A DNA stretch of 55,841 nucleotides. Origin: Chiloscyllium plagiosum. Taxonomy: Eukaryota. A model generated the notes under the pieces. The model saw only the letters and a list, made by a program, of their open reading frames with translations, was not told the DNA's origin and did not search any database. Within the stretch, counting starts at the first letter, position 1, and the number at the start of each line of letters is the position of its first letter. Of this stretch, positions 283 to 45,679 are shown in pieces. The DNA lies in the NCBI RefSeq assembly GCF_004010195.1, contig NC_057753.1, positions 11,948,330 through 12,004,170 of the forward strand, given 5' to 3'. The translations under genes and the position numbers were made by a program.

Positions 283-897
283 TCAGGTGCAGCCGAGAGG
301 TTTGCCCTGGCCGTGAGCCCGCTGGTGTTTCAGGAGGCTGGACGACTGAGTGAACTCCTCCCCGCACTCGGAGCAAGCGAGCGGCCGGTGCCCGGCGTGA
401 ACCTGCCGGTGTGCGCTGAGGTTGGCCGGGCGCCGGAACCTCTTCCCGCAGGCGGCGCAGCCGAACGGCCTCTCCTCGGTGTGCACCCGCTGGTGCGCCA
501 CCCGGGTGGACGACTGGGTGAAGCCCTTGCCGCACACGGCGCAGACGAAGGGCCGCTCGCCGGTGTGCACCCGCCGGTGCACCGACAGCTCCGAGGACTG
601 CTTGAAGCGCTTCCCGCAGGACGGGCACTGGAAGGGCCGCTCGCCGGTGTGCACCCGCCGGTGCGTGACCAGGGCCGAGGATTTGGTGAAGCCCTTCCCG
701 CAGACCGGGCACGCGAAAGGCTTCTCCCCCGTGTGACTGCGGCGGTGGATCTCCAGCTCCGAGGGGTAGTTGAACCCTTTCCCACAGTCCTCGCATTTCC
801 ACGGCTTCTCCCCGGTGTGGGCCCGCCGGTGGATTTCCAGCAGGGAGGGGTAGTTGAACCCTTTCCCGCAGTCCACGCATTTCCACGGCTTCTCCAT
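283..897 (-). CDS. Tandem C2H2 zinc-finger protein, 7 fingers, about 204 aa, no recognisable effector domain (ZNF-A)
   Basis: Seven CxxC-x12-HxxxH repeats with TGEKP/TGERP-type linkers. ATG at 897 is in strong Kozak context (GCGCCATGG) and the protein starts MEKPWKC like its paralogs. Confidence 0.9.
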
Positions 898-1104
898 GGC
901 GCGCTCTCTCTCTCTCTCCACTCTCAGCGGTGAGAGGTCTCTTTAGGCTGTTGAACTGGTCAAAGCTCTTTCCACAGCCAGTCCATTGCTAACTCTCCCA
1001 CTTGAGTGGACGCATGTCTTGTTGCCTTCCTCGTCAACGCTGACATTTGAAAGATAAGAACGAATATTTCAGCTTCCCATCTCAAGGGTCAACAGCATTC
1101 GCGT

Positions 1105-2215
1105 CATGAGAGTCATGCAGCACGTGTACACACCCTTCGGTCAAACCTGTCCGCACTGACCGGATATCCCAAATTAATCTTGTCCCATTCGGCCCATCTC
1201 CCTCTAAACCCTTCCTGTTCATGTCCCCATCCAGATGCTTTGTCAATGCTGTCATTGTACCAGCCTCCACCCCTTCCTCTGCGTGGAAACGTTGCCCCTC
1301 AGCTCCCTTTCCCCTCTCACTTTAAACCTACGCCCCTCTATTTCTGGATTCCCCCACCCCAGGGAAAAGACCGTGTCAGTTTACCCCTATCCATGCCCCC
1401 CTCATGATTTTATAAGCCTCGATGAGGTCACCCCTCAGTCTCCAATGCTCCAGGGAAATCAGCCCCAGCCTCTCCATCTAAACCCTTCCTATTCATGTCC
1501 CCATCCAGGTGCCTTTTAAATGCTGTCATTGTACCAGCCTCCACCACTTCCTCCGGCAGCCCATTCCACACATGCACCACCCTCTGCGTGGAAAAGTTGT
1601 CCCTCGGGTCCCTTTTAAATCTTTCCCCTCTCAGTTTAAACCTCTCTCCTTGGCTAAAATGAAAAGACCTTGGCTAATCACCTTATCCACGCTCCTCATG
1701 ATTTTATAGAGTTATAGAGATGTACAGCGTGGAAACAGACCGTTCGGTCCAACTCGTCCATGCCAACTAGGTTCAGCTGCCAGCACTTGGCCTATATCCC
1801 GCTCAACCCTTCCTATTCACATCCCCATCCAGAAGCCTTTTAAATGCTGTAATTGTACCAGCCTCCACCACTTCCTCTCGCAGCTCGTTCCGTACATGCG
1901 CCACCCTCTGCCCCTTTTAAATCGTTCTCCTCTGACCTTAAACCTTTGCCCTCTAAGTTTTGGACTCCCTCTACCCTGGGGAAAACGACCTCTGCTATTC
2001 ACTCTATCCGTGCCCCTCACGGCTTTACAAACCTCTAGTCAGCCTCCGACGTTTCAGGGGAAAACAGCTCTCGACTATCCAGCCCCTCCTGAGAGCTCCA
2101 ACCCCGGCCTTGTCAATCTTTTCTGAACCCTCTCAAGTTTCGCAACATCCTTCCAGTCGCAGGGATACCAGAAATGAACGCAGTATTCCAAACGTAGCCT
2201 CACCGATATTCTTGA
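1105..2215 (-). mobile_element. Stacked CR1/HER1-type LINE 3' fragments inside the ZNF-A leader
   Basis: Repeated CR1 3'-end motifs (GTACCAGCCTCCACCACTTCC, AAACCCTTCCTATTCA, ACAGACCCTTCGGTCCAAC-like). Confidence 0.85.
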
Positions 2216-3879
2216 CAGCCGTCCTGACGATTGAAGATCTTGACGTGATGTTCCGTTTGGGTTTCTGATCCCTCAATGCTCCTCTAATCCCCTGAGAAGA
2301 GAGTTTGACAAAAGTTAGCCACATATGCACAGTATGCAAACACAGAACAGCCAATTCAAGTTTCCATGGAACATGGTTTCCATTTAGTTGATGGCCATGT
2401 GGTTAGCACTGACGCCTCACAGCACCAGTGACCCAGGTTCGATTCCACCCTAGGTCTGTGGGAAGTTTGCACATTCTTCCCCATGTCTGTGTGGGTTATT
2501 TCCCACAGCCCAAAAGTGTGCAGGTGACGATGGATTGGCCAAGCTACATTGCCCTATAGTGTCCAGGGATGTGCAGACTTCATGGATTAGACATGGGAAA
2601 TTCAAGGTGATAGGGTGGGATGTTCAGTGCAGACTCGATGGGCCGAACGGCCTGCTTCCACACCATAGGGGTTCTGTGATTGCTCCCCCAGAAACCTGGC
2701 CCCACACACTTGAATGTTAAATATTTTACAAGCCAATTTCTCAATGCTGCAACAATGTCTCCCACTTTAAGCCACTTGGAAAATAAAAAGGGATATGGAG
2801 GAAATACCCACCTACTGGTGACATTGCACTTTTAGCTCTAATAGATAGAAACAGATTGAAGGGACTATGGGCCCTTCTCTCACAGCTGCCCCTTCTCCTT
2901 AATCCCACTCCTGCTTTCTCCCCAAAACCCTTGATTTCTTTAGCCGCAAGGGCCATATCCAGCTCCCTCTTGTCTAACAAACTGGTCCCGAAAAGTTTTC
3001 CGTGGGAGAAATTTCTCCTGCTTCACATCCCCGAGAGTAAAAATTCTTCCTCACATCAGTCCTGAATGGCTTATCCCTTATTCTTCAACTGGGAAGAAGG
3101 CATTTGGTACACTTGTCTTTATTGGTTAGTGCATGGAGCATAGAAATTGGGATGTTGTAGCTGTACAGGACATTGGTTAGGCCTTGTTTGGAATACTGCA
3201 TGCAATTCTGGGGGCGAGGGTCTCCCTTCTACAGGAAGGATGGTGTGAAACTTGAAAAGGTGCAGAAAAGATTTACAATGATGTTGCCAGGGTTAGAGGG
3301 TTTGCGCTGTAGAGAGAGGCTGATAGGTGGGGGCTCTTTATCCTGGAGCGTCGGAGGCCGAGGGGTGACCTTATAGAGGCTTATTAGAGTCATGAGTGGC
3401 ACGGAGAGGGTAAATAGCTAAGGGCTTTGCCCCCCCCCCAAGAGTGGGGGAATCTAAAACTAGAGGACATAGGTTTAACGCGAGAGGGGAAAGAATTGAA
3501 AGGGACCAAAGGGGGTGCACCCAGGGGGTGGTGCGTGCATGAACTGAGCTGCCACTGGAAGTGGTGGAGGCTGGTACAATTCCAGCATCTAAAAGGCACC
3601 TGGAGTGGGGACATGAATAGGAAGGGTTTAGGGGGAGATGGGCCGAATGGGACTAGATTCTGCTGAAGGGTCAGTTTCTAAGATGCAATGAATTTCTCTT
3701 CTTGAACTGACAGTTCTTTGTGCATTTTGCACCAGCCTCTGGGTAGGCAGCACCTTCCTTCAATCCCCTCCAAACCTCCAGCCCTTAAACCCCTGGTCAT
3801 TGAGACTCCTTCCCAAATGGGAAACTATCTCACTCTCTCCCCTGCCTGCGCCCCTCAGCCTTCTCTGCTCTCAGCAGCC

Positions 3880-4790
3880 TCCTGACGTGGACCCGGGGTC
3901 AGGTACCTCGATCCCGGGTGTCCGCTGCTGGACTGAGGGGTTGCATGAGGCCTCTCTGCCCATCAGTTCCCATTCCTCTCCCTCTTCCGCCTGCGCACGG
4001 CCACCGTCGCCCGTCACAGGTCCCGCCCACCTCCTCCACCCCGATTGGTTGGAGGACCAGCCGCGCGCCCCGGCTCCTCCAGGCCCGCCCGCCCACCTCC
4101 TCCACTCCGATTGGTTGGAGGTCCCGACTCCGCGGGCTCGGTCCTCCAGCTCCGCCTATCCTATTCACTCCGATTGGTTGGAGGACCAGCCGCGCGTTCC
4201 GGCTCCTCCAGGCCCGCCCGCCCACCTCCTCCACTCCGATTGGTTGGAGGTCCCGACTCCGCGGGCTCGGTCCTCCAGCTCCGCCTATCCTATTCACTCC
4301 GATTGGTTGGAGGACCAGCCGCGCGTTCCCCCCCCCCCCCCCCGACTACTCCAAGCCCGGCCACCTCCTGCACTCCGATTGGTTGGAGTTCCCGAATCCA
4401 CAGGTTCGGTCCTCCAGCACCCGCCTATCTCATTCACTCCGATTGGTTGGAGTACCAGCCGCGCGCCCTCACATTTTGCGACCCCGCCCACCTCCTTCAC
4501 GGTGATTGGTTGGAGGACACCGCCCCCCCCCAACAAACACAAACACACTCACGCGCGCGCGCTGACACTTCCAACCCGCCCACCTCCTTCATCCTGATTG
4601 GTTGGCGGACTCCCGACACCGCAGGCGCCGTCCGCCAGCCCTTCACTCCGAATGGCTGGAGGACCACACTCCGCCCACTCGGTCCTCCAGCCCCGCCCCC
4701 CCACCACCACCGGCTGTCAATCACCCCGGCTTCTCCACCCAAGAAGGGGGCAAAAACGGTCTGCGTCATCAGTGTGCGCCAGAGAGACAC
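3880..4790. promoter_or_regulatory. CpG-rich, probably bidirectional promoter between divergent ZNF-A and ZNF-B; array of CCAAT and GC boxes
   Basis: GATTGGTTGG at about 4041, 4107, 4170, 4236, 4299, 4375, 4439, 4503 and 4595, with CCGCCC/CCGCCT boxes; 129-bp higher-order period; high CpG. Confidence 0.75.
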
Positions 4791-4950
4791 AGAGCAAAGG
4801 GGGACTGAGGCTGGGAATAGAGGAAAGCAATGGTGGGATGGGTTTGAATTTCAGTCCAGGCAGGAAGGGGGGATTGTGTGGGGCCCGGATTTGCAACCCT
4901 GGAGGAACAGGAAAGCAAAAAGAAATGGGTCCTCCAGAAAGTGTCTACTT

Positions 4951-5161
4951 GGTGACCTCCCTGACATGGTGACCTCCCTGACATTGGTGACCTCCCTGAC
5001 ATGGTGACCTCCCTGACATTGGTGACCTCCCTGACATTGGTGACCTCCTCCCTGACATTGGTGACTTCCCTGACATTGGTGACCTCCCTGACATGGTGAC
5101 CTCCCTGACATTGGTGACCTCCCTGACATTGGTGACCTCCCTGACATTGGTGACCTCCCTG
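4951..5161 (+). repeat. 17-18-bp minisatellite GGTGACCTCCCTGACAT(T) x12 abutting the predicted 3' splice site of ZNF-B
   Basis: Twelve near-identical units counted; followed by TGCAG|TGTGTTAGAAGAGAGG, which resembles the exon-2 starts of the paralogs. Confidence 0.95.
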
Positions 5162-5439
5162 TGCAGTGTGTTAGAAGAGAGGGTTTAAAAGGCGCATGAG
5201 TCCAGCCCAAACCATACACCAGCGTCTGGTTGAGGTTAATTGGGATCTGAACACCCCAGAATCTGAATGTGGAAGGAGAGACGTTTGTGGGGAAACCAGA
5301 GAAGCGCTGAGGTGCGCAGCCGAGGAGGTAGAGCTTTTACTAGTTGCGCAGCTTGGAATAACTGCCTGGGTTTGCAGTGATGAGGGAGTACCTATGTGTA
5401 CTGTGCGTGGACAACTGATTATCCAGCTGGGAGAGCAAG

Positions 5440-6651
5440 ATGGAGAAACCGTGGAAATGTGGAGACTGTGGGAAGGGCTTCAGTTACCCCTCTCAACTGG
5501 ATATTCATCGTCGCAGACACACTGGAGAGAGGCCATTCACTTGCACGCAGTGTGGGAAGAGGTTCGCTTATTCATCCAGCCTGTACTTACACCAGAGGGT
5601 ACATGCTCGCAAGAAGCCGTTTGCCAACCTTGGTGGTCGGGAACAGTTTGCTTCATCAAACCTGATGGGCCGGGTTTGTTCTGATCAGAGGCCTTTTAAA
5701 TGTTCTGACTGTGAGAAGGGCTTTAAAAGCAAACAGGAGCTGCTGAGACACCAGCGCACGCACACGGGCGTGAGACCTTACACTTGCACCATTTGTGGAA
5801 AAGGATTTGCTCAGTCATCCTACCTGCTGACACACCAGCTTGTTCACACTGATGAGAGACCTTTCCCATGTTTGGACTGTGGCAAGCATTTTAAAAGTAA
5901 AAATGACTTGCAGTTCCATCAACGCATTCACACTGGGGAGAGGCCGTTCTCCTGCTCCCTGTGCGAGAGGAGATTCCGGCGTTTATCCCAAATGCAGACG
6001 CACCAGCGAGTTCACACTGAGAAAAGACCTTTCAAATGTTCCAACTGTGACAAGAGCTTTAAAAGCAAGCAGGATCTGTTGACACACCAGCGGGTTCACA
6101 CTGGGGAGAGGCCATTCACCTGTTCTGTGTGCGGAAAGCGGTTCACCCGATCGTCCAATCGTCTGAGACACCAGCGCGTCCACACCGGGGAGAAGCCGTT
6201 CGCGTGCTGCGTGTGCGGGAAGGGGTTCACTGATTCTCCGCAGCTTCTGATCCACCAGCGCATTCACACCGGGGAGAGACCGTTCACTTGCTCTACGTGT
6301 GGGAAGGGTTTCACTCAGCCGTCCCAGCTCACTGAACATCAGCACGTCCACACTGACCAGCGGCCCTTCAAATGCCCCGACTGCAAGAAGAGCTTTAAGA
6401 GCAGGAAGTATCTGCTGATGCACCGGCAGGTTCACACTGGGGCGAGACCTTTTACCTGCCTGGTGTGTGGGAAGAGGTTCACTCAGTCGTCCCACCTGCT
6501 GAGACACCAGCAGCTTCACACTGGGGAGAGGCCGTTCACTTGCTCTCGATGCGGGAGGGGATTTGCTCGGTTATCCAACTTGCTGAGACACCAGAGAGTT
6601 CGCAAGTGTGTACTGAGAGGGGATTCTGTTGTCAGTCCTGTCCAGGATTGA
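5440..6651 (+). CDS. Tandem C2H2 zinc-finger protein, 403 aa: 12 canonical fingers, 1 variant terminal finger and 1 degenerate finger (ZNF-B)
   Basis: Uninterrupted ORF of Kruppel-type fingers starting MEKPWKC; AATAAA at 6741-6746. Confidence 0.93.
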
Positions 6652-6834
6652 CAACGCCCATTTGGACAGTTGAGCCTGCCTTAACCGCTGTAAATCTTCA
6701 TTGTAACTGGTCTGGTGCTTAACGTGCTGGGTAAAGTTCAAATAAATGTTGGGGAATCTGTTTGACCGGCCTGTGTGTGAATGAAAGGCTGCGCAGGCTT
6801 GCAGGGGGCGTTGAACAGCCTACTCCAATTTCCA

Positions 6835-7990: not shown

Positions 7991-8330
7991 ATGTGGGGAG
8001 TTTTTACTTACACCTAAACTAGATTGGTAGTTTATTAGGGTCAGTACAGAGTGTCTCGACAAGGAGCTTGTCGAATGCACTTGACATGGTTTTCTAGAGC
8101 CACATGTTCTGGAAGCAATTGGAACGAAGGCTGAAGGAGACTTTGTGGTACAGTAGGGTTAATGGATGGTCCCAGAGTAAAGGCAGTAGTGACCAGAAGG
8201 CGGGTCAATTTTACCTCCAGTATGAAAGGTAGAAGCAAAGGCGTCAGACAAGTATTTTAAATTTAAGAAGGAGCTGAAAATGTGTTGCTGGAAAAGCGCA
8301 GCAGGTCAGGCAGCATCCAGGGAACTGGAG

Positions 8331-8367
8331 AATCGACGTTTCGGGCATGAGCCCTTCTTCAGGAATG
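8331..8367 (-). ncRNA. Minimal hammerhead ribozyme motif (family 1)
   Basis: Reverse complement CUGAAGA-A-GGGC(UCAU)GCCC-GAAA-CGUC. Confidence 0.75.
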
Positions 8368-8477: not shown

Positions 8478-8808
8478 NNNNNNNNNNNNNNNNNNNNNNN
8501 NNNNNNNNNNNNNNNNNNNNNNNNNNNNNNNNNNNNNNNNNNNNNNNNNNNNNNNNNNNNNNNNNNNNNNNNNNNNNNNNNNNNNNNNNNNNNNNNNNNN
8601 NNNNNNNNNNNNNNNNNNNNNNNNNNNNNNNNNNNNNNNNNNNNNNNNNNNNNNNNNNNNNNNNNNNNNNNNNNNNNNNNNNNNNNNNNNNNNNNNNNNN
8701 NNNNNNNNNNNNNNNNNNNNNNNNNNNNNNNNNNNNNNNNNNNNNNNNNNNNNNNNNNNNNNNNNNNNNNNNNNNNNNNNNNNNNNNNNNNNNNNNNNNN
8801 NNNNNNNN
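8478..8808. other. Assembly gap (N run)
   Basis: 331 N. Confidence 1.
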
Positions 8809-9520
8809 GGAGGGAGTGGTCTTTTCGGAACGCTGATAGGGGAGGGGAGGGAAATATATCGCTGGTGGTGGGGTCCGTTTGGAGGTGGCGGAAATGACGG
8901 CGGATGATACGCTGTACATGGAGGTTGGTGGGGCGGTGGGTGAGGGCAAAGCTGAGTGAGTTGAAGTGAGTGGGATATTAGACTGGGAGGTGGATTGGTA
9001 AACAAGCCAATGGCAGACACTTAAACAGATATTCACTGTCGTTACACAGAATTTCCAGGGAGAGATCTCACCATCCGTGATGAACTGCTGACGTTAAGGA
9101 AGGCATTGAACTCGAGAAAACACACAAGGACAGTACTAATACACTTAACAGTAGGGCCCTGGGTAGTGCAGAACAGAGGAACCTAGGGGATCAGGGACCT
9201 AATACTTTGAAGTTTGCATCACAGGTTCACAGGGTGGTTAAGGCATTTAACACGCTTGCCTTCATTGCACAGACCTTTGAGTATCGGAGTTGGGACATGA
9301 CATTAAGGTTGTACAGGTTGTTGGTGAGGCTCTCCTGGAGTACTGTGTCCCATTCTGGCCGCTCTGTTATAGGAAGGACATTGTTAAGGGGTGGAGAGGG
9401 TTCAGAAGAGAGTTACCAGGATGTTGCTGGGTGTGGAGGGCTTGAGCTGTAGGGAGAGGCTAGATAGACTGGGGACCTTTTTTCACTGGAGCGTAGGAGG
9501 TTGAGGAGGGACCTTTTAGA

Positions 9521-9840: not shown

Positions 9841-9900
9841 GATGTTTATAAAACTGAGGGGTATAGGTAAGGTGAATGGCAGGTGTCTTTTCCCTGGGGT

Positions 9901-11612
9901 GGGCATGGTGGCGCAGTGGTTAGCAACGCTGCCTCACAGCACCAGGGTGCCAGGTTCGATTCCTGTCTCAGACGACAGTCTCTGTGGCGTTTGCACATTC
10001 TCCCCCGTGTCTGCGTGGGTTTCCTCCCACAGTCCAAAGATTTCTAAGGGTGGATTGGCCATCTTAAATTACCCATAGTGCCCAGGGATGTGCAGGTTAG
10101 GGTGGATTAGCCATGCTAAATTACCCATAGTGCCCAGGGAAGTGTAGGTTAGGGTGGATTAGCCATGCTAAATTACCCATAGTGCCCAGGGATGTGCACG
10201 TTAGGGTGGATTAGCTATGCTAAATTACCCATAATGCCCAGGGATGTGTAGGTTAGGGTGGATTAGCCATGCTAAATTACCCATGGTGTCCAGGGATATA
10301 CTGGTTAGGGTGGATTGGCCGTGCTAAATTGTGCATTGTGTCTGGTTAGGGTGGATTGGCCGTGCTAAATTGTGCATTGTGTTGAGGGACGTATAGGTTA
10401 GGGTGGATTAGTCAGGGGAAATATAAAGTAACAGGGTAGACGAATGGGTTGGGAGTGGGCTTCTCTTCAGAAAGTTGGTGTGGACTGCTTGGGCTGAATG
10501 GCCTGTTCCCACACCGTTGGGATTAAAGCTCGAGGAGAAAGATTTTAAAGAAGTCAAGGGGCAACTTTCTTTTTCCACAGAGGCTAGTTCGGCTGTGGAA
10601 TGAACTTCCCACAATTTCTTATGGAATACCTACAGTATAGACACATGGCCCTCTGGCCCAACAAGTCCACGCCGACCCTCTGACGAGGGAATCCCACCCA
10701 TTCCCCTACATTTACCTCTGACTAACGCACATTCGCCCCCGGATTTTGCAAGGGTTTCCTTCCACAATCCAAAGATGTGCAGGTTAGGGTGGATTGGCCG
10801 TGCTAAATTACCCATGGAGCCCAGGGATGTGCAGGTTAGGGTGGATTAGCCGTGCTAAATTACCCATAGTGCCCAGGGATGTGTAGGTTAGGGTGGATTA
10901 GCCATGCTAAATTACCCATGGAGCCCAGGGATGTGTAGATTAGATGCCCTATAGTACGGGAACATGCCCTTCGGCCCAACAAGTCCACACCGACCCTCGG
11001 AAGAGTAACCCATCCAGACCCATTCCCATAACCCTATATTTACTCCTGACTGATGCACCGATCACTACGGGCAATTTAGCATGACCAATTCACCCAACCC
11101 TCATACGATGGCTCAGTGGTTAGCAATGCCAGGGACCCGGATTCGATTCCCGCCTTAAGCAACTGTCTGTGTGTAGTTTGCATATTCTCCCCGTGTCTGC
11201 ATGGGTTTCCTCCGGGTGCTCTGGTTTTCCCCGAAGACGTGCAGGTCAGGTGAATTGGCCATGCTAAATTGCCCGTAGTGATCGGTGCATCGGTCAGGAG
11301 TAAATATAGGTTATGGGAATGGGTCCGGATGGGTTACTCTTCCGAGGGTCGGTGTGGACTTGTTGGGCCGAAGGGCCTGTTCCCGTACTATAGGGCATCT
11401 AATCTACACGTCCCTGGGCTCCAGGGGTAATTTAGCACGACCAGTCCACCCCAATCTGCACATCTTTGGATTGTGGAAGGAAACCCTTGCAAAATCGGGG
11501 GTGGGGGGCGAATGTGCAACGTCCACACAGAATGGAATCCGAGGCTGGAATCGAATCCGGGGCCCTGGTGCTGTGAGGCTGCAGTGCTATCCGCTGAGCC
11601 ACTGTGCTGCCC
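9901..11612. mobile_element. Cluster of HE1 SINE copies with an internal 52-bp tandem amplification (10050-10410, 10790-10935) and an inverted duplication
   Basis: Unit GTGGATTAGCCATGCTAAATTACCCATAGTGCCCAGGGATGTGCAGGTTAGG repeated; inverted arms at about 10730-11096 and 11249-11515. Confidence 0.85.
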
Positions 11613-15601: not shown

Positions 15602-15949
15602 TTTTCCAGCAATTTCTGCTTTGAAAGACAATAGGTGCAGGAGTAGGCCATTCTGCCCTTCGAGCCTGCACCACCATTCATTATGATCATCCTCAATCAG
15701 TATCCTGTTCCTGCCTTATACCCATAACCCTTGATTCCACTCTCCTTGAGAGCTCTATCCACTGTTTCAGAATGATGTAAAGGTGGGCTGTGATTTTTTG
15801 GTAGCTGCATCAGTCAAGTCAATCGTTTTATACCTTGTCCCCATTGCAACTCATTTTGAAATTCAATAATATTGCCAGCTCATATGGGTGGGTGCAGTGA
15901 CCCCAACGTTGCCCAGATCATGGAACACACTATCCATTATGTAGCACAC

Positions 15950-16330
15950 CCCCTTCTGCGCATGCGTCGTCAGCTCAGAGAAAGGGGTGGGGGGGAAGAG
16001 ATCTACTTTTACGGACATGCGCTGTGAGGGGGGTTCCAAACGGCGCATGCGCATTATCGGGCACTGCGGGTTCAGGAGGCTCACGCATTTCAGCTCCGCG
16101 CCTGGAGGAGGAGCGTGGACGGCTGTCGGAAAGTAACGGAGGTGAGGGGAGGGGAGGGAAGGAGGTTGTAGGAGCCCGCAGCGGAGGTTTCAGGCCCCGA
16201 ATAAGCGGCTCCCGGGGCCTCCGTCGGCGCAGAGCGAGCACCAGCGGGGCAACGGCAGCCATCTTTGTAGGGGGCAGCGGGCAGCAGGGCGCATGCGCCG
16301 CCCCGCCCCGCCTTCAGACGGGAGCATGTT
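15950..16330. promoter_or_regulatory. CpG-island promoter with three NRF1-type GCGCATGCG motifs; overlapping plus- and minus-strand first exons
   Basis: GCGCATGCG at about 15958, 16043 and 16289; + donor GAG|GTGAGG at 16142; - donor TGC|GTGAGC at 16084; YY1/Kozak-like AAGATGGC on the minus strand. Confidence 0.75.
16085..16262 (-). CDS. Candidate coding exon 1 (MAAVAPLVLALRRRRPRE...RRGAEM) of a predicted 136-aa ORF
   Basis: AAGATGG Kozak context just downstream of an NRF1 motif; 178 nt to a phase-1 GTGAG donor. Confidence 0.4.
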
Positions 16331-17906: not shown

Positions 17907-19311
17907 GGGCTTGGAAAAGAGAGGGGATCTCAAACCGCCACGTTAGGATCGGACCGGGCCGCTGAATTTTATCACGACCTGCACACCCTCGGACTTTGAA
18001 CATGGAAGGGAAAAGGAGCGTCCATGGCGGAGAGAAACTGCACGTGTGTTTCCGTGTGCGGTCACTCAGATGGTCATCTGGCCTCTTGGAGCACGCGTGC
18101 AGCGGCGTCGGTGGGGGAGAAGCTGTGGCAACGCGGGGACTGCCAGGAGGGGTTCACTTACCTGTCTGAGCTGGAAGGTCACCCACGGGGTCACGCCCAG
18201 CAAAGGCCCTTCGTCCGCTCCGCCTGTGGGAAGGGATTCTCTCAGTCGTCCACGCTGCTGACTCACCAGAGGGTTCACTCCGATGAGAGACCTGGTCTGC
18301 GGGATGGCCTTCAAAATTCCCTGGGAGCTGACGCGTCACCATCGCGTCCACGCCGATGAGAGTGCTCTCGGTGCAGGCCCGGCTTCCGGCGATCTCCGGC
18401 CTCATGGTCCACCAGCGGCTGCACACGGAGGGGGAGAGGCCATTCACCTGCGCCGCGTGCTGGAAGTGCTTCAGGGGCAGCACGGTGGCTCAGTGGTTAG
18501 CACTGATGCCTCACAGCACCAGGTTCCTAGGTTCAATTCCCGCCTCAGGCGACTTGACTGTGTGGAGTTTACACATTCTCCCCGTGTCTGCGTGGGTTTC
18601 CTCCGGGTGCTCCGGTTTTCCTCCCACAGTCCAAAGATGTGCAGGTCAGGTGAATTGGCCACGCTAAGTTGCCCGTAGTATTAGGTGCATTAGTCAGGGT
18701 AAATATAGGCTAGAGAAATGGGTCTGGGTGGGTTACTCTTCGGAGGGTCGGTGTGGACTTGTTGGGCCAAAGGGCCTGTTTCCGTACTGTAGAGAATCTA
18801 ATCATTCAGTCGTGCCACCTCGGGAGGCCCTTCGGACAGAAGGCCCTTCGCGTGCCTGGAGTGCGGGCAGCACTTCAACAGCTCGGGGGACCTGATGTCC
18901 CTGCAGCGGGTCCACTCCGACGCCAGGCCTTTAGGCTGCCCGGTCTGCGGGAAGGGCTTCAAAGACTCCCGAGATCTGACACGCCACCAACACGTGCGCA
19001 CACAGACGAGAAACCTCTAAAGTGCTCTGACTGCGGCGCGGGCTTCAAATGGGCGTCCGACCTGGTGGCCCACCAGCGGATTCGCCTGCCCCTGAGCGCG
19101 GGAAGGGCTTCACCACCAAGTCCAACCTGCGGAAACACCAGTGGGTCCACACTGGCGAGAGGCCGTTCGCCTGCTCCGAGTGTGGCAAGGAGTGCACCGC
19201 CTTAGCTGCCCTGCTGGCCCACCGGTGGGTCCACACCAGGGAGAGGCCGTTCCCCTGATCCATCTGCGGGAGGCGGGTCACTTCTTCCGGCACCAGCGTC
19301 TTCACAAGTGA
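17907..19311 (+). pseudogene. Tandem C2H2 ZNF pseudogene (frameshifts, lost Cys/His, HE1 insertion)
   Basis: Finger remnants in shifting frames ([33 protein letters not shown]); paralogous acceptor TACCAG| at 17906; AATAAA near 19396. Confidence 0.85.
18475..18803 (+). mobile_element. HE1 V-SINE inserted within a zinc finger
   Basis: A/B boxes; interrupts CAACWKCF; short TTCAG duplication. Confidence 0.9.
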
Positions 19312-25952: not shown

Positions 25953-26119
25953 TTTAATTTTTCAAAAAATACCTAATCCTTGTTTTCAGATTACTCCATG
26001 GTCTTCCCCTCTCCCCAGACAAACCTCAACCCTTCCTTCAATCGAAGGTCAATAATCATATTCATTTGATTGGAAGCAAACTGCTTGACTTGGAGGAAAT
26101 TGACAGGACATTCCTCCAG

Positions 26120-26520
26120 GCTAGCCTGCAGCGCAGGCGCAGTGCGGGCCCACTGTCCAAAGAAATGGCCCTGGGCGGGGGAGAGAGAGAGAGAGAGAGA
26201 GACACACACTGTCCGGAGCAGGCGCAGTGCGGGACCCACGCGCCCCTCCACCGTCCTGAGCAGGCGCAGTGCAGCAGACGCCGACTGTCGGGGAGGTGCT
26301 TCTCGCCCAGATCCCGAGCCGGTTGCCCTGGAAACCATTGCACCCGGAGAGGCTGGGGGAGGGGGCGGGACTCCGGGGACCGCGCGCCTGGCCCTGCAGC
26401 CTGGAACCCGAGGACGTCGCCGACGAGCTTCGCGATTCCTATTGGTCGTTTCGGGACGGCTCCAGCCAACGCCCCCCATTGTGGACGTCACGATGCGGAA
26501 GTTGGCCATTGAGGTGCAGA
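26120..26520. promoter_or_regulatory. CpG-island promoter with no adjacent intact gene
   Basis: GCAGGCGCAGTGC x3 (near 26131, 26216, 26258), RFX X-box-like GTTGCCCTGGAAAC 26322-26335, GC box, ATTGG, CRE-like GACGTCAC 26484, ETS CGGAAGT 26496. Confidence 0.65.
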
Positions 26521-32760: not shown

Positions 32761-33124
32761 ACATGGTCAACAGGAGTCCTAGCTGACATGTCGCAGCACA
32801 ACCCAGTCGGGCTCATATCCCTGCAAGTTAATTCCTCTCGAGTGCTGACCCAGTTTCATTTAGGAATCGTTGACCATCCACAGCCATCACCTTCGTGACC
32901 CTCGACCCCATTGTGAGAAACGGCAACACCTTCGGGAATGTGTAACCTTCAAACTAACCGAAGGGTCTGTTTCCGCACTCTTTAGCCAACAGAGTTTTAC
33001 ATGCGAATGTACCTGCCCCCCCGCACGAAGACTTTGAGGTATCTATGTCATGGACGGGGATTGGTATGGGATCTCCAGGAGAAAGGAGGGACAAGAGGGC
33101 GGGGCAGAGATTGTACATGTTTTG

Positions 33125-33572
33125 GGGAACGTAATATCACGCCAAGATCCGAGAGTGTCACTCGATTCCCTGGAACGCGACTATCGTTGGCTTTTGAATT
33201 GAGGCGAAATAATTGTCTGAAGGTTTGGAGCCTGGAGATGCACTGAGGCACAGGACACATCCTATTGACCGTGCTCCAGCTCACTGACTGCAGAGAGAGC
33301 TTTGACTGTACTGTGGGACACTGTGTACAGTCCTTTCTGCTGTTTCGTCAACGCGAAATGGCTGTGATGCAACGGACGAGGTAGGTGAACGCTGTTTGTA
33401 AAAAGCAAACTTTTGCATGTGTGTTTCCTAGTATGCGATTCCACCCAGTCCTCCCATCTCCTGACCCACCAGCGGCTCCACGCCGGGGAGCGGCCGTTCC
33501 CCTGCCCCATGTGCGGGAAGGGATTCGGTGATGCTTCCCACCTGTCAGCTCACCGGAGCGTTCACAACTGAT
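33125..33572 (+). pseudogene. ZNF relic: family leader plus about 1.5 fingers
   Basis: ATCACGCCAAGAT...CACTCGATTC leader; [42 protein letters not shown]. Confidence 0.75.
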
Positions 33573-34719: not shown

Positions 34720-34975
34720 CACAATGGGGAGGAGATGTTTTAAATGTCCAGAATGCAAGGGGTTCTGGGAACTTTGGAGTGGACTGATGTCCCATCGCTG
34801 TGTGCATGCTGATGAAAGAGCATGCGGGAATGGGTTCAAGCTGTCATCTTGCCTCACTGTACTGCAGTGAATTTGCACTGGAGGGGGTGTGTGTGGGTTC
34901 AGCTGCTGCGAGTATGGGGAGGGGATTCACGCAGTCATCCCACCTGCTGAGACAGCAGCGAGCTCACCAGGAACC
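34720..34975 (+). pseudogene. Highly degenerate ZNF relic
   Basis: FKCPECK...HRCVHADER and [17 protein letters not shown] remnants. Confidence 0.6.
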
Positions 34976-38659: not shown

Positions 38660-39620
38660 GCATTTAGGACCATTTGGCGTGGCCTGTTTGGCACAGCCTA
38701 TTTTGCCGCAGACCCATTTAGGTGGAGAAGTATTTTGGCGCAGATATACGGTAGTCATCAACGAAAATCAGCATAATAGTAGAATTATTAAATGGGTAGT
38801 TTCCACTAGTTTGTAGTTATTATTAAAATAACTAGTCAAAAGCAAAACAAACTGCAGAGGGAACTTTACAAGTGATTGATGAGTGCCTAGAAAATTTGTC
38901 GGAAGCTTGCCAAGAAACGATGCCCTAACAACAGAGCGCTGAAGAAAATGGTTTGTAGGACAAGGAAAGAAATTGCTGCTTACCCAGTAAATCCAAGAAA
39001 TTTAGAAGAACTTGTAATTCCAGATAGCTTTAAAACATATTCTATTAATGAATATAACGAAGAACAATTTTTTACTAGCCGACAGCGGTAGCACCACCTG
39101 CAGAATTCTTATATTCGGAAGAAAAAAGAATGCAGAGTTTCTGAAACAATCAAAAAGGTTATGTGTTGATGGAACGTTCAAAATTTCCCCACCTCTGTTT
39201 TCAGACGTTTATGTTATTTTAGGAGAAATACATAAAAGTGTGTTCCCACTGTTGTATGCTTTAATCCCAAATAAGTTACGAACAATAAATTATTTGAAGT
39301 GGTTCTGGAAAGACAGCCTGAACACCGCCCTGACATTATCAACTGTGACTTTGAACTTGTACATCTTGTAGCAGGGCACGATATTCCGTTGTAATTAAAG
39401 AAATTCAGGGAATTTAATGGGTTATTTTTTTTTATATAAGTTTTGAGGAACCACGGTTACAAGTGGACTAATCACAGACTAAATGCAGTTGATACAGAAA
39501 TAACTGGAAACTATCCATTAAATAATTCTACTATTATATTGTCTTTCTTTCATGACTACCGTATATCTGCGCCAAAATGAGTCTGTGGAAAAGTAGGCTG
39601 CGCTGAATGGTCCCACTCCA
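38660..39620 (+). mobile_element. Mutator-like (MULE) DNA transposon, internally deleted, with long TIRs
   Basis: TIRs share TTTTGGCGCAGATATACGGTAGTCAT...ATAATAGTAGAATTATT; peptide ILIFG...LCVDGTFKISPPLFSDVYVI...VFPLLYALIPNK; candidate 9-bp TSD CCCCCCAAA/ACCCCCAAA; inserted into an HE1 SINE. Confidence 0.85.
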
Positions 39621-40694
39621 ACCCCCAAATCCTGCATTTCCCTTTTGCTAATCCACCTCGCCTGCACATCTCTGGACACAAAGGGGCAATTTAGCGTGGC
39701 TAATCCACCCTAACCTGCCCATCTTTGGGCTGTGGGAGGAAGGCCGTGCAGACGCGGAGTGGGGGGGGGGGGGGGGGGGAAGAATGCACAAACAGACACA
39801 GTCGCCCGAGGCTGGAATCGAACCCGGGTCCCACGTGAGGCAGCAGTGCTAACCACTGAGACAGTGTGTTCTGCAATTGTCTGTCCTCTTGCTCACTGGG
39901 CTGAGGATGACCACATTCACGTCCTCCACCATGTTGCTCCGTGTAAAGATGTCAGCCACGCGAATCAAGAGTCTCCTCCCCAATGCAGGCCTTTCACCTT
40001 ATCTTTAATGTTGCCTTGTCTCTCTGATGCTCTCACAGTTAGTTACCTGCTGAGGTAACTTCTGAGACAAACACACAAGAGCAGAAATCAGGCCATTCAG
40101 CCGATCGGGTCAGCTCCAACATTCAGTCGTGGCTGATAAGCTTCTCAACCCCATGCTCCCCAGAACCCTTGATATTCAAGAACCTATTTAACTCAACCTT
40201 AAACATGCTCTGTGACCTGGCCTCCACAGCCTTCTGTGGTAGTGAATTCCTTAGATTCACCACTCTCTGGCTGAAGAAGTTTCTTCTTATCTCCATTCTA
40301 AAAGGTCTCTTCCCTCTACTCTAAGGCTGTGCCCTCAGGTCTTAGACTCTCCTACCAATGAGAACACCTTCCCAGCATCTACTCTATCCAGTAGATTTAG
40401 TACTCTGTATGTTTCATTCCCTCCGCCCCCCCCCCATATCCTTCTAAACTCCATTGAGGATAAAACCAGAGTTCTCAAATGTTGCTCATGTGTTCAGCTT
40501 TTCATTCCTAGGACCATACAACCACATCCTATGGTTGTGAATTTAACATCTGCTTCCTATCTGTTGAAAGAAATACTTGCCGGTTCCCTGTTGGACGTCC
40601 TGAGTCTGCATCATGTATGTACGGCCTCCACTGTTACCAGACACCAATAAGGGGAAGTGTTCCAGCATGTTCAGGATATTAAAAGACAATACCA

Positions 40695-42460
40695 ACCCTG
40701 GCAACATCCTTGTCAATCTTTTCCGCAGCCTTTAAAGTTTCACAACGCCTTTCCTGTTGCAGGCGAAACCGGAACTAAATGCAGTATTCCAAAATGTGGC
40801 CTCACCGATGTGCTGCACAGCTGCATCACGACCTCCCAACTTCAGTACCTGATCTACTGACCAATAAAAACAAGTGTACCAACAGTCACCTTCACTGTCC
40901 TGCCTACCTGCGATTCCACCTGCAAAAGGAACTATGAACCTGCACCCCAAGGTCTCTTTGCTCAGCAACGTTCCCCAAGATCCTGCTATTAAGTAAGAGT
41001 CCTGCTCTGATTCGCCCTTCCGAAACGCAGCACCTCTCATTTATCTAAATTAAACTCCACCTGCCACTCCTGAGCCCTTCTGATGTACTCAGAGCTGACC
41101 TTCATTGTCCGCTGCACCAATTTTAATGACATCTGCAAACTTATTAACCATTCCTCTTGCGTTCACATCAAAATCATTAATATTAAAGTGTCAGGAAGGC
41201 AGTGGACCCAGCACCAATCCCTTGTGGCACAACACTAGTCACAGGCCTCCAGTCTGAAAAGCAACCCTGTGTCCCCTACCTTCAAGCCAATTTTGTATCC
41301 AAGAGCGAGCTTTCCCTGTGATCTCACCTTGCTAACCAGTCTACTGTGCGGAATCTGGTCAAATGCCTTGCTTAGGTCCACACAGACAATGTCCAACTCT
41401 CTGCCTTCAATCTTCTTCAAAAGACAATCAAATTATTTACCCAGCTTTATGCACTTTAAGACATCCAGCACCTCATCCTCTCTGATGTGGACACTTAAGA
41501 CATCACTATTTATTTCTCCAGCTTCCTTATCCTCGTTTAGTATCTCGCCCATCTCTCTTGCAGTTGCACACAGAGGGCCTTGTTGATCTTTTGCGGGGGA
41601 TGGGGGGGCTCCCCTCTCCCTGATTCCTCTTTTGTCATTGATATATTTGTAGAGTCCCTTTGGATTCTCCTTCAGCCTTTTTGCCCTCATGATTTCCCTC
41701 TTCAGCATATTCCTCCTGGCCTTGAGGGATTCGCTCTATCCCCAGCTGTCCAGACCTGCCACAATGCCTCCTTTCTCTTGACCAGGGCCTCAAATTCTGT
41801 CATCCAGCATTCCCTACCAACCTTGGCCCTTCATGCTAACAGGAACGTACTGCCTCTCATTCTTGAAGGCCTCTCACTTTCCAGCCGTCCCTTTACCCGC
41901 GAGTATCTGCCCCGGTCAGCTTTTGAAAATTCTTGTTAAAATTGGCAAATTTAGAACTTTAAACTTTTTGATATATCTATTGTGTTTCCATAACTAATTT
42001 TGACAGGAACAAAATTACCAGTGGCCCCAAAGAGCTCCCCCCACTGACCTCAGTCACTCGTCCTATTTCCCAAGAAAAGGTCACATTCTGCTCCTTGTCT
42101 GGTGCGTACATCACACACTGAATGGTGACATTTTCCTGTACACACTTAAATTCCTTTCCATACAAGCCCTTAATACTGTGGCAGCCCTAGTCTATGCTTG
42201 GACAATTAAAACCCCCTTACCATCATGAGCCTATCATTCTTACAGATAACAGATCTCCTTTCAAACTTGCTTCTTGAATTTCCCACTGACTATTGGGGTG
42301 GGGGGTGGGAAGGGAGGGCCCCACAATACAATCCCAATTCGGTGATCATCCCTTTCATATCTCAGTTCCATCCAGTGGATGTACTTCCAAGAATATCTTC
42401 CCATAATGTCATCCCTAACCAAAAACACCACTCTGAACGGGGAACAACCCTCCACCTCCA
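40695..42460 (-). mobile_element. Old CR1 LINE ORF2 remnant
   Basis: VDLSKAFDQIPH, LKENPKGLYKYI, EMGEILNE fragments. Confidence 0.85.
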
Positions 42461-42517
42461 TCCTCGGTCTCCTACCATCAAGCCAACTTTGGCTAGCTCT
42501 CCCTGGATCCCACGTTT

Positions 42518-43156
42518 TTAGATTAGATTAGATTACTTAGTGTGGAAACAGGCCCTTCGGCCCAACAAGTCCACACTGACCCTCCGAAGAGCAACCAACC
42601 CACACCCATTCCCCTGCATTTTACCCTTTCACCTAACACTGCGGGCAATTTAGCATGGCCAATTCACCTAACCTGCACATTTTTGGACTGTGGGAGGAAA
42701 CCAGAGCACCCGGAGGAAACCCACGCAGACACGGGGAGAATGTGCAAACTCCACACAGACAATTGCCTGAGGCGGGAATCGAACCCCAGTCTCTGGCGCT
42801 GTGAGGCAGCAGTGCTAACCACTTTGCCACCGTGCCGCCCACAAACGTTAGCCAACCTTTACATTACATTACATTACATTACAGTGTGGAAACAGGCTCT
42901 TCGGCCCAACAAGTCCACACCGACCCGCTGAAGCGCAACCCATCCATACCCCTACATTTACCTAACACTACGGGCAATTTAGCATGGCCATTTCACCTGA
43001 CCGGAACATCTTTGGACTGTGGGAGGAAACCGGAGCACCCGGAGGAAACCCACGCAGACACGGGGAGAACGTGCAAACTCCACACAGTCAGTTGCCTGAG
43101 GCGGGAATTGAAGCCAGGTCTCTGGCGCTGTGGGGCAGCAGTGCTAACCACTGTGC
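42518..43156 (-). mobile_element. Two head-to-tail HE1 V-SINEs (42518-42840, 42858-43156)
   Basis: Two SINE bodies with different tails, (ATTAG)n and (ATTAC)n on the + strand. Confidence 0.9.
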
Positions 43157-45088
43157 TTACTCAGCAGTCTATTGACTGCCCTGCCTTCATCCACCGTTTC
43201 GGTCACCTCTTCAACATAAACTCAATCAAGTTTGAGACACACGATTTCCGACAGCGTTGAAACACGGGAACGTGTGAAATAACAGACGGTTCAGGTGCTG
43301 ACTGGGATGGAATGACTGGGCAGACAGGGAACGCCAGGTATAACACAGCACTGTCACCCAGCTGTAGGAGCTCCAAATGGTCTCATTCAAATCACTCAAT
43401 GGGATTCCCCAGAGGCTCAGAAATACACAAAGATACATCTACACACTCTTGATGAAACACACACACACACACACACCCAACTTAAACAGGCACATTCACA
43501 TACACACTGAACTTCCTGTCCAATTGGACGGCCAACAGCAACCCCACTGTTCAATTGGTTCGTTAAAAATCTTGGTACCTGGAAGCTCATGATGCCAGAG
43601 AAAGCAGTCTAAGGATCGTGCGAGAGACTGACCTTCCAAGTTCACTTCCGTTCTCTGAAACTGTTTAATCTACACAGAGTGAGCAATGACACATTAACAA
43701 TGACACCCGGCGACCAACCCCCAGTCAGAGATTGCGCTCGACACAGGAAACATTAGCCTCTACATGTCCTGTCGAAATCACAGACGATACTAAAACCGCA
43801 CAAATGTGATGATGAAGGGAGATGAGAGAGAAAGACGATGGCGCCGTTGCGATTTGGTGATCAGACGCTCCGGTGAAATCAAACTGATGGAAGTTGCATC
43901 GTCGCTTATAATTTACAAACAGAATTGCGACGTCCGTGTGCTGCCTCACTCACATCTTCCGTGAACATCGCATTGGAGATTTAAGAGCAAGTGGCCCCAC
44001 TGCATCTTGCACAAAATCACTTTCGCCACACAGGCACGCCTGCTCTTGAATAGTTTGCCCCAGCTCAGAGGGACGTTACAGGGACCACTACTTCCGAATG
44101 ACACTGCTCTATCGCCACAGGAAACAGGAGCCCATTGTCCAGGCTGACCCTCCACTGAGGGACTACTGCCCAGAGACAGGCAGCATCCTTCATGTAGGGC
44201 ACGTGGCAGCTCTGAAAACACCACCTTCCAATCCCTCTTTGTAGAGGCAAGCCCGTAAAAGGAAAAGCCTTCCCTTAAATCAGCACCTCCCGGTCAGAGG
44301 AGAAGGGTTCATCTTTCTGCTGGTTTCTCAAAATGCGCACAGATGCTTCAATTATCTTTTCAAATCGAATCAAAAAGCCATTCTGCGTTTTACAGGATGT
44401 GTGTTTTTTTTTAAAATATTCCACCTTGCACAAAAAAAAGGTCACTTTTCCCCCCCGCTGTTTGTTCTTCAGGTAACTTTGCAAATAACTATAATAAAGC
44501 TGAAGACACACAGAAGACTAAAGACAGTTGTTTGGTCGCTCAGAACTTGAGGATTTGAAAAAAATAAAAAGATTCGTGTTGCTCTAATGAGCATGAGACC
44601 ACGCAAAAAAAAAAAAGCTGTAACAAAATGCGCCATTTTTCAAGCAATTGCTGAGAGCAAAATAGTTAGCCTTCGTCGTTAAGCTGCAGCTTTGACATTC
44701 CTTGACCAAAAATATTTGGGAGATTGTTCCTCTGATGATCTATTGGCACAGAACCACAGTCTGCAAGCAGATAAGAGCATTTTAAAAGTGACCCCCGTCA
44801 CACTGAGTAAGATGTCCCCGTCGTTTCAATCATCGTTCTTTCGTAATGTGACAGTTTAGCGTATCCTCAAGTTCTGGGAAAATAAAAAAGGTCATGTCGG
44901 AATTGAAAACGTTAACTCTGTCCTTCTCTCGGGATCCGATGAGTCACTTCCAATATTTTCTGTCCCACAAAATAGTAAACTTCAGCCAGTTTATTGAGTC
45001 GTTAACATTGGCAGACGCAAACCTAATGACGTCAGTTGCATCTGAGATGGACAGTCTACTGTCAGCACAGAAAAGCAGTGCAGTCTGG

Positions 45089-45679
45089 TTACCTATGGAT
45101 TTGCTGGTGTCTCAGGAGGTGTTGCGATTGAGTGAACTCCATCCCACAGACCGAGCAGCTGAAAGGCTGATCCACACTGTGGACCCGCTGGTGTGTCAGC
45201 AGCTGGGATGACCACGGGAATCCTTTCCCGCACACGGAGCAGGTGAACGGCTTCTCCCCCGTGTGAGTGCGCCGGTGCTCCTGGAGGTCGCTCGCCTGCC
45301 TGAAGGTCTTCCCGCAGGACGCGCACCTGTACGGGCCCTCCTTCGTGTGGAAGTAGTGGTGCGACTGGACGGCGTCTATCTGATCGAACCTCTCCCCGCA
45401 CACGAAGCAAGCGAACGGCTTCTGCCCCGTGTGAATCCGCTGGTGCTCGGTGAGCAGGGAGGAAGACTTGAAGCCGTGCCCGCAGGTCGTGCAGCTGAAC
45501 GGCTTCTCCTCGGTGTGGACCCGCTGGTGCAGGGAAAGGCCGGACGACTGAGTGAACCTCCTCCCGCACTCGGAGCAGGTGAACGGCCTCTCCCCGGTGT
45601 GAATGCGCCGGTGTATATCCAGCCGGGACGAACAAGTGAACCTTTTACCGCAGTCCTCACACTTCCACGGTTTCTCCAT
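45089..45679 (-). CDS. Tandem C2H2 zinc-finger protein, 7 fingers, about 196 aa (ZNF-C)
   Basis: MEKPWKC start in GCGCCATGG context; 7 fingers; acceptor TTCCTTTTCCAG| at 46004; minus-strand AATAAA at 44990-44995. Confidence 0.9.
   Translation of the reverse strand: MEKPWKCEDCGKRFTCSSRLDIHRRIHTGERPFTCSECGRRFTQSSGLSLHQRVHTEEKPFSCTTCGHGFKSSSLLTEHQRIHTGQKPFACFVCGERFDQIDAVQSHHYFHTKEGPYRCASCGKTFRQASDLQEHRRTHTGEKPFTCSVCGKGFPWSSQLLTHQRVHSVDQPFSCSVCGMEFTQSQHLLRHQQIHR

What the first reader, a model, noticed from the sequence alone, without database searches (positions are those of the whole stretch)
283..45679. Effector-less tandem ZNF family with an invariant atypical first finger (MEKPWKC.DCGK.F...S.L.IHRR.H)
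Seen: all three intact ORFs start MEKPWKCxDCGK. ZNF-A has this finger twice, and the pseudogene retains a decayed copy (EKLWQRGDCQEGFTYLSELEGHPRGH). The DNA-contacting positions of the following fingers vary widely. No KRAB, SCAN or BTB domain is visible. Intact genes sit beside relics, consistent with birth-and-death evolution in a TE-rich cluster. Established: KRAB-ZNFs in tetrapods are rapidly evolving TE repressors with a constant effector and variable fingers. Inference: the conserved first finger may be a protein-interaction module of an analogous chondrichthyan TE-control system.
Basis: partly seen in the sequence, partly recalled or inferred. Interest (0 to 1): 0.72.

Follow-up and report, generated by a model that had tools for sequence, protein, structure and literature searches.

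The report
Shark zinc-finger family's constant lead finger
These shark genes belong to a family of zinc-finger gene regulators that carry no separate repressor domain but all keep one unusual, strongly conserved finger at or next to their front end, which may be the docking part that does the job the KRAB domain does in land vertebrates.

Summary
Observation largely confirmed, with two corrections. Three intact ORFs (897-283, 5440-6651, 45679-45089) start MEKPWKCxDCGK. The finger is not invariant, and it is finger 2 in the pseudogene and in a second ('MEGK') subfamily. For ZNF-C, contigs of two probable RNA runs splice a non-coding exon 1 onto the finger exon, with in-frame stops before the ATG, so that transcript has no effector exon. 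The finger is a shark-wide hallmark: 32 of 42 array segments (window plus public models of eight genera) carry it, always first or second. It is under purifying selection (pN 0.12, pS 0.74 between window genes) while the adjacent leader of decayed fingers has drifted. Acidic helix +5 occurs in 27/28 copies versus 0/189 downstream fingers; one skate model keeps the helix signature. Its excess conservation over the next finger is modest (0.61 vs 0.52) and partly an array-edge or ascertainment effect. Best reading: a ZNF-only family whose constant finger is a docking module (about 0.4); TE repression is untested. The expansion is already counted in print; I found no description of this finger.

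The parts
283..897 (-). ZNF-A ORF, 204 aa, 7 C2H2 fingers; signature ('W') finger twice
817..897 (-). ZNF-A W finger copy 1 (copy 2 at 733-813)
938..985 (-). decayed out-of-frame finger in the ZNF-A leader
   Evidence: nhmmer E=0.0095; aligns to the ZNF-C leader, z=7.0
4017..4694 (.). CpG island with 9-10 tandem GC-box/CCAAT-box units between the divergent genes A and B; inferred bidirectional promoter
   Evidence: function inferred
4949..5161 (+). 18-bp minisatellite (11.8 copies) directly before the predicted ZNF-B acceptor
5167..5439 (+). ZNF-B leader, decayed spacer and fingers; in-frame TGA 8 codons before the ATG; acceptor at 5166/5167 predicted only
5440..6651 (+). ZNF-B ORF, 403 aa; W finger 5440-5520; AATAAA at 6741
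15900..16300 (.). CpG island with GCGCATGCGC motifs, likely promoter of pseudogene D
   Evidence: link to D inferred
17907..19310 (+). pseudogene D, MEGK subfamily: acceptor, leader, ATG 18002, decayed MEGK finger, frameshifts, stops
18117..18194 (+). decayed W finger of D, second finger of that gene
18474..18805 (+). SINE inserted in D's finger array (end approximate); 20 copies of 150 nt or more in the window
33120..33570 (+). relic E: family leader plus the last two fingers; W finger absent, no start codon in the finger frame
   Evidence: leader aligns to C, z=13.6
34720..34970 (+). relic F: decayed internal and last fingers
45089..45679 (-). ZNF-C ORF, 196 aa, 7 fingers; W finger 45599-45679; strong Kozak context; AATAAA at 44995
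45680..46003 (-). ZNF-C exon-2 leader: decayed spacer and fingers, in-frame stops, three short uORFs
46004..48065 (-). GT-AG intron of ZNF-C, 2062 nt, filled with repeat fragments
   Evidence: joint in contigs of runs X1 and X2
48066..48194 (-). ZNF-C exon 1, non-coding for the ZNF (one 35-codon uORF); 5' end may extend further
48250..48500 (.). CpG island with the same GC-box/CCAAT/GGTCCTCCAG units as the A/B promoter
53806..53888 (-). relic G: single decayed finger
   Evidence: nhmmer E=1.7e-05

Best explanation
These are members of a large elasmobranch family of tandem 'zinc-finger-only' genes. Shown for ZNF-C: a CpG-island promoter, a non-coding exon 1 and one coding exon whose 5' part is a decayed spacer and decayed fingers. 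Shown by comparison: translation starts either at MEGK, one finger upstream, or at a Met standing in the linker position directly before the signature (W) finger; fingers upstream of the W finger are dispensable, the W finger is kept. Shown: it is under purifying selection at positions outside the usual base-reading set (hairpin K-C-G-D-C, helix +1 Pro, +5 Glu/Asp, +8 Arg) while helix +3 varies. Inferred: it no longer reads bases in a gene-specific way but offers a constant surface for a protein partner (co-repressor or other chromatin factor), so the effector sits inside the finger array, and the variable downstream fingers select DNA targets. Inferred by analogy only: the targets include retroelements and the outcome is silencing.
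For: Splice joint 48066/46003, GT-AG, in contigs of two runs from two organisms with 1-2 other letters in about 550; no upstream ATG is in frame or overlaps the main ORF. W finger at array position 1 or 2 in 32 of 42 segments, never deeper. W vs downstream fingers: E/D at +5 27/28 vs 0/189, Gly after Cys1 22/28 vs 0/189, Pro at +1 26/28 vs 11/189, Arg at +8 21/28 vs 11/189. Between window genes pS 0.74, pN 0.117 for W fingers (5 pairs) against pN 0.326 for other fingers (162 pairs); the 141 nt before the ATG score near shuffled level in 2 of 3 pairs, so this is not recent copying of the 5' end. Mean identity 0.74 vs 0.61+-0.02 for random downstream fingers, 0 of 1000 draws reaching it; cross-genus, non-structural positions 0.61 vs 0.52 (next) vs 0.44 (next but one), bootstrap of the difference 0.015-0.16. 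A skate model (P0268, Amblyraja) has another array consensus but a first finger with the same helix: identity 0.65 to W fingers, 0.46 to other shark fingers; 0 of its 13 later fingers carry the Pro/Glu pair. The family spacer is read in different frames by different gene models, and the sequence upstream of it differs in each, so no shared effector exon is visible.
Against: No partner, binding or repression is shown. The excess over the next finger is small and follows a gradient from the array edge (W > next > last > interior). With one array per genus the difference to the next finger was zero or negative in 8% of draws, and in the 4 arrays it all but vanishes (0.59, 0.53, 0.56). Most homologs were collected with queries containing this finger, and 15 of 28 arrays are Heterodontus. 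ZNF-C lacks the Tyr-Pro pair. The one stingray model seen (P0089, Hemitrygon) lacks the finger. Helix +3 varies as base-reading positions do. RNA support exists for C only, from contigs that drop rare isoforms; acceptor-like AGs lie 4 and 50 nt before C's ATG. The first repeat of mouse PRDM9 is also distinct and evolves apart, without being an effector (PMC3890296, passage).
Confidence: 0.4

Rival explanations
1. The W finger is a constant nucleic-acid or structural module: it caps and stabilises the array, or grips backbone, nucleosome, RNA or a shared DNA triplet and sets the register for the variable fingers. The family then works by occupying DNA, with no recruited effector.
For: Canonical beta-beta-alpha fold predicted, helix starting at the conserved Pro (pLDDT 87). 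Net charge still positive, +1.5 vs +2.3. -1 (Tyr 23/32) and +2 (Ser 28/32) are also conserved, and +3 varies.
Against: An acidic residue at +5, absent from all 189 downstream fingers, is hard to square with backbone contact (inference). It also works as finger 2 behind an intact finger in the MEGK subfamily, so it is not simply an N-terminal cap.
Confidence: 0.27
2. Array-edge effect plus ordinary fold constraint: all genes descend from one founder, unequal crossing-over reshuffles interior fingers but spares the unit next to unique flank, so it keeps the founder's residues with no special role.
For: Conservation gradient from both ends. The MEGK finger is also distinct and conserved (0.69, n=7). 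PRDM9 first-repeat precedent. The weak signal in the 4 least-biased arrays.
Against: Synonymous sites are near saturation while surface residues are kept. Fingers upstream of it decayed repeatedly while it stayed. The skate finger keeps the helix residues although its hairpin and array consensus differ (one sequence).
Confidence: 0.2
3. A hidden effector exists: a shared short coding exon (FiNZ- or KRAB-like) is joined in frame in other isoforms or in the functional minority of members, through the spacer or a cryptic acceptor close to the ATG.
For: The spacer is acidic and Ser/Thr-rich and runs in frame into the MEGK finger in P0006 and P0220, as the spacer of a two-exon effector-ZNF gene would. 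Acceptor-like AGs 4 and 50 nt before C's ATG.
Against: Spliced contigs of C carry a non-coding exon 1. The spacer is read in another frame in P0027 and in both frames in P0141, and holds a TGA in C. Sequence upstream of it is unrelated among the models that include it.
Confidence: 0.1

Closest known systems
KRAB zinc-finger genes of sarcopterygians
   Same: Lineage-specific tandem poly-C2H2 clusters, one finger exon, constant front part with variable fingers, relics among retroelements.
   Different: No KRAB domain or effector exon; the constant part is itself a C2H2 finger. KRAB families are reported lost or absent in cartilaginous fishes (PMC8455134 passage; PMC11603059 passage).
FiNZ-ZNF genes of cyprinids (Wells et al. 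2023, PMC10547256)
   Same: Independent fish expansion with a family-wide N-terminal constant; proposed TE repressors; acidic residues noted in the constant part.
   Different: FiNZ is a 28-aa non-finger domain on its own upstream exon (section 4 read). Here exon 1 is non-coding and the constant is a finger. TE repression was tested for FiNZ genes, not here.
'ZNF-only' polydactyl genes (category in PMC3971581)
   Same: Tandem C2H2 arrays with no KRAB, SCAN or BTB domain; hundreds per vertebrate genome (table passage).
   Different: That category is defined by absence; the passages seen give no family-wide signature finger, and 'shark' does not occur in the text.
First repeat of the PRDM9 finger array
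   Same: A first finger that differs markedly from the rest, evolves differently and is not predicted to read DNA (PMC3890296 passage).
   Different: One gene with its own KRAB-like and SET domains; here the finger is shared by many paralogues that have no other domain.
Public shark models named 'zinc finger protein 239/271/850-like'
   Same: Same family: W finger, MEGK finger, leader and promoter motifs are visible in them.
   Different: Names are automatic; many models fuse several tandem genes or read into non-coding leader.
ZNF644 and WIZ
   Same: Multi-finger proteins that bring a silencing enzyme (G9a/GLP) to DNA without KRAB (PMC4365668, abstract and passages).
   Different: Single-copy conserved genes with spaced fingers; the passages seen map binding to a terminal region, not to a named finger. 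A functional precedent only.

Membership tests
KRAB-ZNF | N-terminal KRAB domain on an upstream coding exon | tested here: not met
   No KRAB hit; C's exon 1 is non-coding and stops precede the ATG
KRAB-ZNF | Tandem C2H2 array in a single exon, clustered paralogues and relics | tested here: met
KRAB-ZNF | TRIM28-dependent repression of TEs | not testable with these tools
   needs tethering and ChIP
FiNZ-ZNF | 28-aa acidic FiNZ domain on its own exon, in frame with the array | tested here: not met
   No in-frame upstream exon in C's spliced form; no FiNZ profile was run; A and B not RNA-tested
SCAN- or BTB-ZNF | SCAN or BTB domain before the fingers | tested here: not met
   the ORFs begin with a finger
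ZNF-only polydactyl genes | Tandem C2H2 fingers with TGEKP-type linkers and no known effector domain | tested here: met
Elasmobranch W-finger family (defined here) | Signature finger at array position 1 or 2 | tested here: met
   32 of 42 segments carry it, all at position 1 or 2; the 10 without are mostly later pieces of broken or partial models, plus one stingray model
Protein-binding C2H2 fingers | Demonstrated binding to a protein partner | not testable with these tools
   no eukaryotic cofactor can be supplied; needs pull-down
TE-targeting ZNF arms-race systems | Positive selection on positions -1, 2, 3, 6 among orthologous fingers | tested here: inconclusive
   dN/dS about 1.0 at these positions vs 0.33 overall, but across non-orthologous fingers of three old paralogues
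TE-targeting ZNF arms-race systems | Binding enriched on TE families | not tested
   no motif prediction or binding data

The most novel reading that the evidence does not exclude
Sharks and skates run a KRAB-independent TE-silencing system in which a C2H2 finger was co-opted as the effector: hundreds to thousands of ZNF genes lost their upstream coding parts, moved their start codon up to this finger, and use its Pro/acidic/Arg helix face to recruit one shared co-repressor, conserved since the shark-batoid split.
Probability: 0.27. Interest if true: 0.82.

Novelty: new variant of a known kind. Interest (0 to 1): 0.52.

Why it matters
Shark and skate genomes hold hundreds to thousands of tandem zinc-finger ORFs (315-3586 in the seven elasmobranch assemblies seen in the Wells et al. 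supplement) but lack the KRAB system, and how these proteins act is open. A 28-residue family-wide finger with three or four diagnostic residues gives one small bait for tethering and pull-down and one marker to annotate the family, whose public gene models are often fused or extended into non-coding leader. If it is only an edge effect, the result still defines the family and corrects its annotation.

Tried and rejected
No whole genome is held for this window, so family size in this species was not counted. A degenerate finger-1 DNA pattern found 0 stretches in metagenome contigs and 0 in viral contigs. A predicted homodimer of B residues 1-61 with zinc gave 'no answer' (score 0.00, alignment not used); it is counted neither way. 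The ESM Atlas returned generic C2H2 clusters only, and the PDB sequence search generic finger arrays. The search with the P0006 leader region gave 26 hits, of which one other shark model held the leader. No run is on record as an RNA holder; of the two single-cell raw-read runs X19 gave 733 reads from about 2% of the run and no read across the joint, and X20 gave none, so start site and expression level are unknown. The high summed contig depth at 45453-45669 was not used, since it can come from the generic linker. Recent gene conversion of the 5' end was rejected for the three window genes. 3' tails align above shuffled level in 1 of 15 pairs only (D-E). and one search used a ZNF-A start off by one base; this was corrected. 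Literature: ten searches; the literal motifs [17 protein letters not shown] and PWKCEDCGK occur in 0 papers. The library lacks most subscription papers, three Wells supplement files were not searched and bioRxiv supplements are closed, so a prior description cannot be excluded.
Full report
WHAT IS THERE. A six-frame scan finds three intact tandem C2H2 arrays: ZNF-A 897->283 (-, 204 aa, 7 fingers), ZNF-B 5440->6651 (+, 403 aa, 12 full fingers, a 13th with the last His replaced, one decayed unit) and ZNF-C 45679->45089 (-, 196 aa, 7 fingers). Each begins MEKPWKCxDCGK; A carries the finger twice. A finger profile also finds a broken gene D (17907-19310, split by a SINE) and relics E, F and G. Pfam gives finger-type families only. 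The surroundings are repeat-rich: 46% of non-ZNF bases have a self-hit, one SINE has 20 long copies, and two frames match reverse transcriptase. The closest homologs of finger 1 are shark proteins (73-85% identity in 4 of 13 hits, at most 62% in the other 9), so this is a shark locus.

TWO CORRECTIONS. The finger (here 'W finger', from the Trp before the first Cys) is not invariant: 69-88% identity in the window, helix +3 is L, E, Q or R, and C lacks the Tyr-Pro pair. It is not always first: in D an ATG at 18002 opens MEGKRSVHGGEKLHVC and a decayed finger precedes it. Public shark models show both layouts, a 'MEK' type (P0121, P0122, P0128, P0175) and a 'MEGK' type (P0027, P0095, P0141, P0226, P0241).

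IS THERE AN EFFECTOR EXON? For ZNF-C, contigs of two runs from two organisms (X1, X2; RNA by guess) join 48066 to 46003 across a 2062-nt GT-AG intron, with 1-2 other letters, and run on through the ATG. The joined leader has four upstream ATGs, none in frame with or overlapping the ORF; the ORF's ATG has a strong context. In-frame stops lie 15, 8 and 24 codons before the ATGs of A, B and C. So the spliced form seen encodes fingers only.

THE LEADER IS A GRAVEYARD OF FINGERS. The 5' part of the coding exon is homologous among family members (C-E z=13.6, A-C z=7.0, B-C z=4.2; 3 of 10 pairs exceed every shuffle) and reads as a spacer followed by decayed fingers. Gene models that stray into it read the spacer in frame (P0006, P0220), in another frame (P0027) or in both (P0141), each with unrelated sequence further upstream: DNA-level descent, not a fixed peptide. 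Models of the MEK type show the tail of a finger, then the linker with Met where Gly normally stands (15 of 32 W fingers have Met there). I infer that the start codon moved downstream more than once as upstream fingers decayed, and stopped at, or one finger before, the W finger. Relic E, which kept the leader and the last fingers but lost the W finger, has no start in the finger frame; one case only.

HOW CONSERVED IS IT? A profile of window pieces against 1.84 billion representatives returned mostly long arrays of any animal; 11 of the best 150 held a finger with this Trp, 8 of them shark models (Carcharodon, Heterodontus), each a fusion of several tandem genes. Pooled with the named shark hits and the window, 32 of 42 array segments carry the W finger, always at position 1 or 2; the 10 without are mostly later pieces of broken models and one stingray model. 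P0193, named Heterodontus only afterwards, was left out; it has one copy with Cys for Trp and one decayed copy. Mean identity is 0.74 among W fingers, 0.67 for the next finger, 0.58-0.60 inside, 0.63 for the last; random downstream sets give 0.61+-0.02. On 28 arrays with two or more later fingers, cross-genus pairs and 16 non-structural positions, the values are 0.61, 0.52, 0.44 and 0.49; the bootstrap range of W minus next is 0.015-0.16. Against this: one-per-genus draws give no excess in 8% of cases, the 4 arrays give 0.59/0.53/0.56, most hits were collected with W-containing queries, and 15 of 28 arrays are from one genus. The excess is real but modest.

WHAT STANDS OUT IS WHICH RESIDUES ARE KEPT. 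Against 189 downstream shark fingers: Glu/Asp at helix +5 27/28 vs 0, Gly after the first Cys 22/28 vs 0, Tyr at -1 20/28 vs 3, Pro at +1 26/28 vs 11, Arg at +8 21/28 vs 11, Asp before the second Cys 27/28 vs 23. Position +3 varies freely. Between the window's genes synonymous sites are near saturation (pS 0.74) while pN is 0.117, against 0.326 for other finger pairs, and the adjacent leader has drifted (5 non-independent pairs of 26 codons). That is purifying selection, not recent copying. A skate model (P0268, Amblyraja radiata) has a different array consensus and a different hairpin, yet its first finger keeps the Pro/Ser/Leu/Glu/His/Arg/Arg helix (identity 0.65 to W fingers vs 0.46 to other shark fingers). 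It is one sequence. The fold is predicted as ordinary beta-beta-alpha with the helix starting at the Pro. Positions -1, 2, 3 and 6 are the base readers (PMC3971581 passage); +1, +5 and +8 fall on one other face by helical periodicity (inference, not measured on the model).

MECHANISM. Best reading (0.4): a ZNF-only family in which the W finger is a constant docking surface for a protein partner and the downstream fingers choose targets. The gene anatomy and the selection are shown (I put them at about 0.85); the docking role and any TE silencing are inferred. Rivals: a constant nucleic-acid anchor or structural module (0.27); array-edge retention without special function, with PRDM9's first repeat as precedent (0.2; PMC3890296 passage); a hidden effector isoform (0.1).

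WHAT IS KNOWN. Wells et al. (PMC10547256; passages, section 4 and supplement rows seen) count 315-3586 ZNF ORFs in seven elasmobranch assemblies and 475 in a chimaera, and describe FiNZ for cyprinids; 'shark' does not occur in their main text. KRAB families are reported lost in cartilaginous fishes (PMC8455134 passage), and PMC11603059 (passages) places only PRDM9 there. ZNF-only genes are a known category. ZNF644 and WIZ show KRAB-free recruitment of a silencing enzyme (abstract and passages). Ten searches, including the literal motifs, found no description of this finger; the library and supplement gaps limit that claim. The family fails the KRAB, SCAN, BTB and FiNZ membership tests, yet its layout (constant front, variable fingers, clustered birth and death) resembles theirs.

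VERDICT. A real, shark-wide feature, visible in public gene models but apparently undescribed; a new variant of a known kind. Interest 0.52.

Noticed in passing
window 4017-4694 and 48250-48500: The promoters of A/B and of C share a repeated GC-box + CCAAT-box + GGTCCTCCAG unit (about 65 bp, 9-10 copies between A and B). The same motif shows up, mistranslated, in Carcharodon and Heterodontus gene models P0159 and P0193, so the promoter unit is also family-wide.
   Followed up: partly
window 4949-5161: An 18-bp minisatellite whose unit contains a branch-point-like CTGAC stands where ZNF-B's polypyrimidine tract would be; no consensus donor was found at 4650-5000, so B's splicing is unclear.
   Followed up: no
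window 5413-5439 region; P0225, P0226: B has an in-frame TGA 8 codons before its ATG inside the last decayed finger; frameshifted readings in two Heterodontus models imply a TGA at the same place, and P0220 has Arg there, which suggests an old shared CGA-to-TGA change.
   Followed up: partly
window 26000-26500: A CpG island with repeated GCAGGCGCAG motifs and no adjacent intact gene; perhaps the orphan promoter of relic E.
   Followed up: no
P0027, P0095, P0141, P0220, P0226, P0241, P0006: The MEGK finger is a second family-specific finger (mean identity 0.69, n=7) ending in HK[C/R]SH, with Cys in 3 of 7; it could be a second module.
   Followed up: partly
window 6595-6651; P0193, P0246: B's C-terminal tail resembles the tails of two Heterodontus models (..DSAVIAAVNH.QD), which looks like read-through into a shared 3' UTR when the usual stop after the last finger is lost.
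   Followed up: no
window 43500-44792: A contig of run X1 extends well past C's AATAAA at 44995, suggesting a longer 3' UTR or unspliced RNA.
   Followed up: no
window 10047-10943: Tandem arrays of a 52-bp unit that looks like an internal part of the local SINE.
   Followed up: no
window about 8567-8897: A run of 331 N (assembly gap) lies between ZNF-B and pseudogene D.
   Followed up: no
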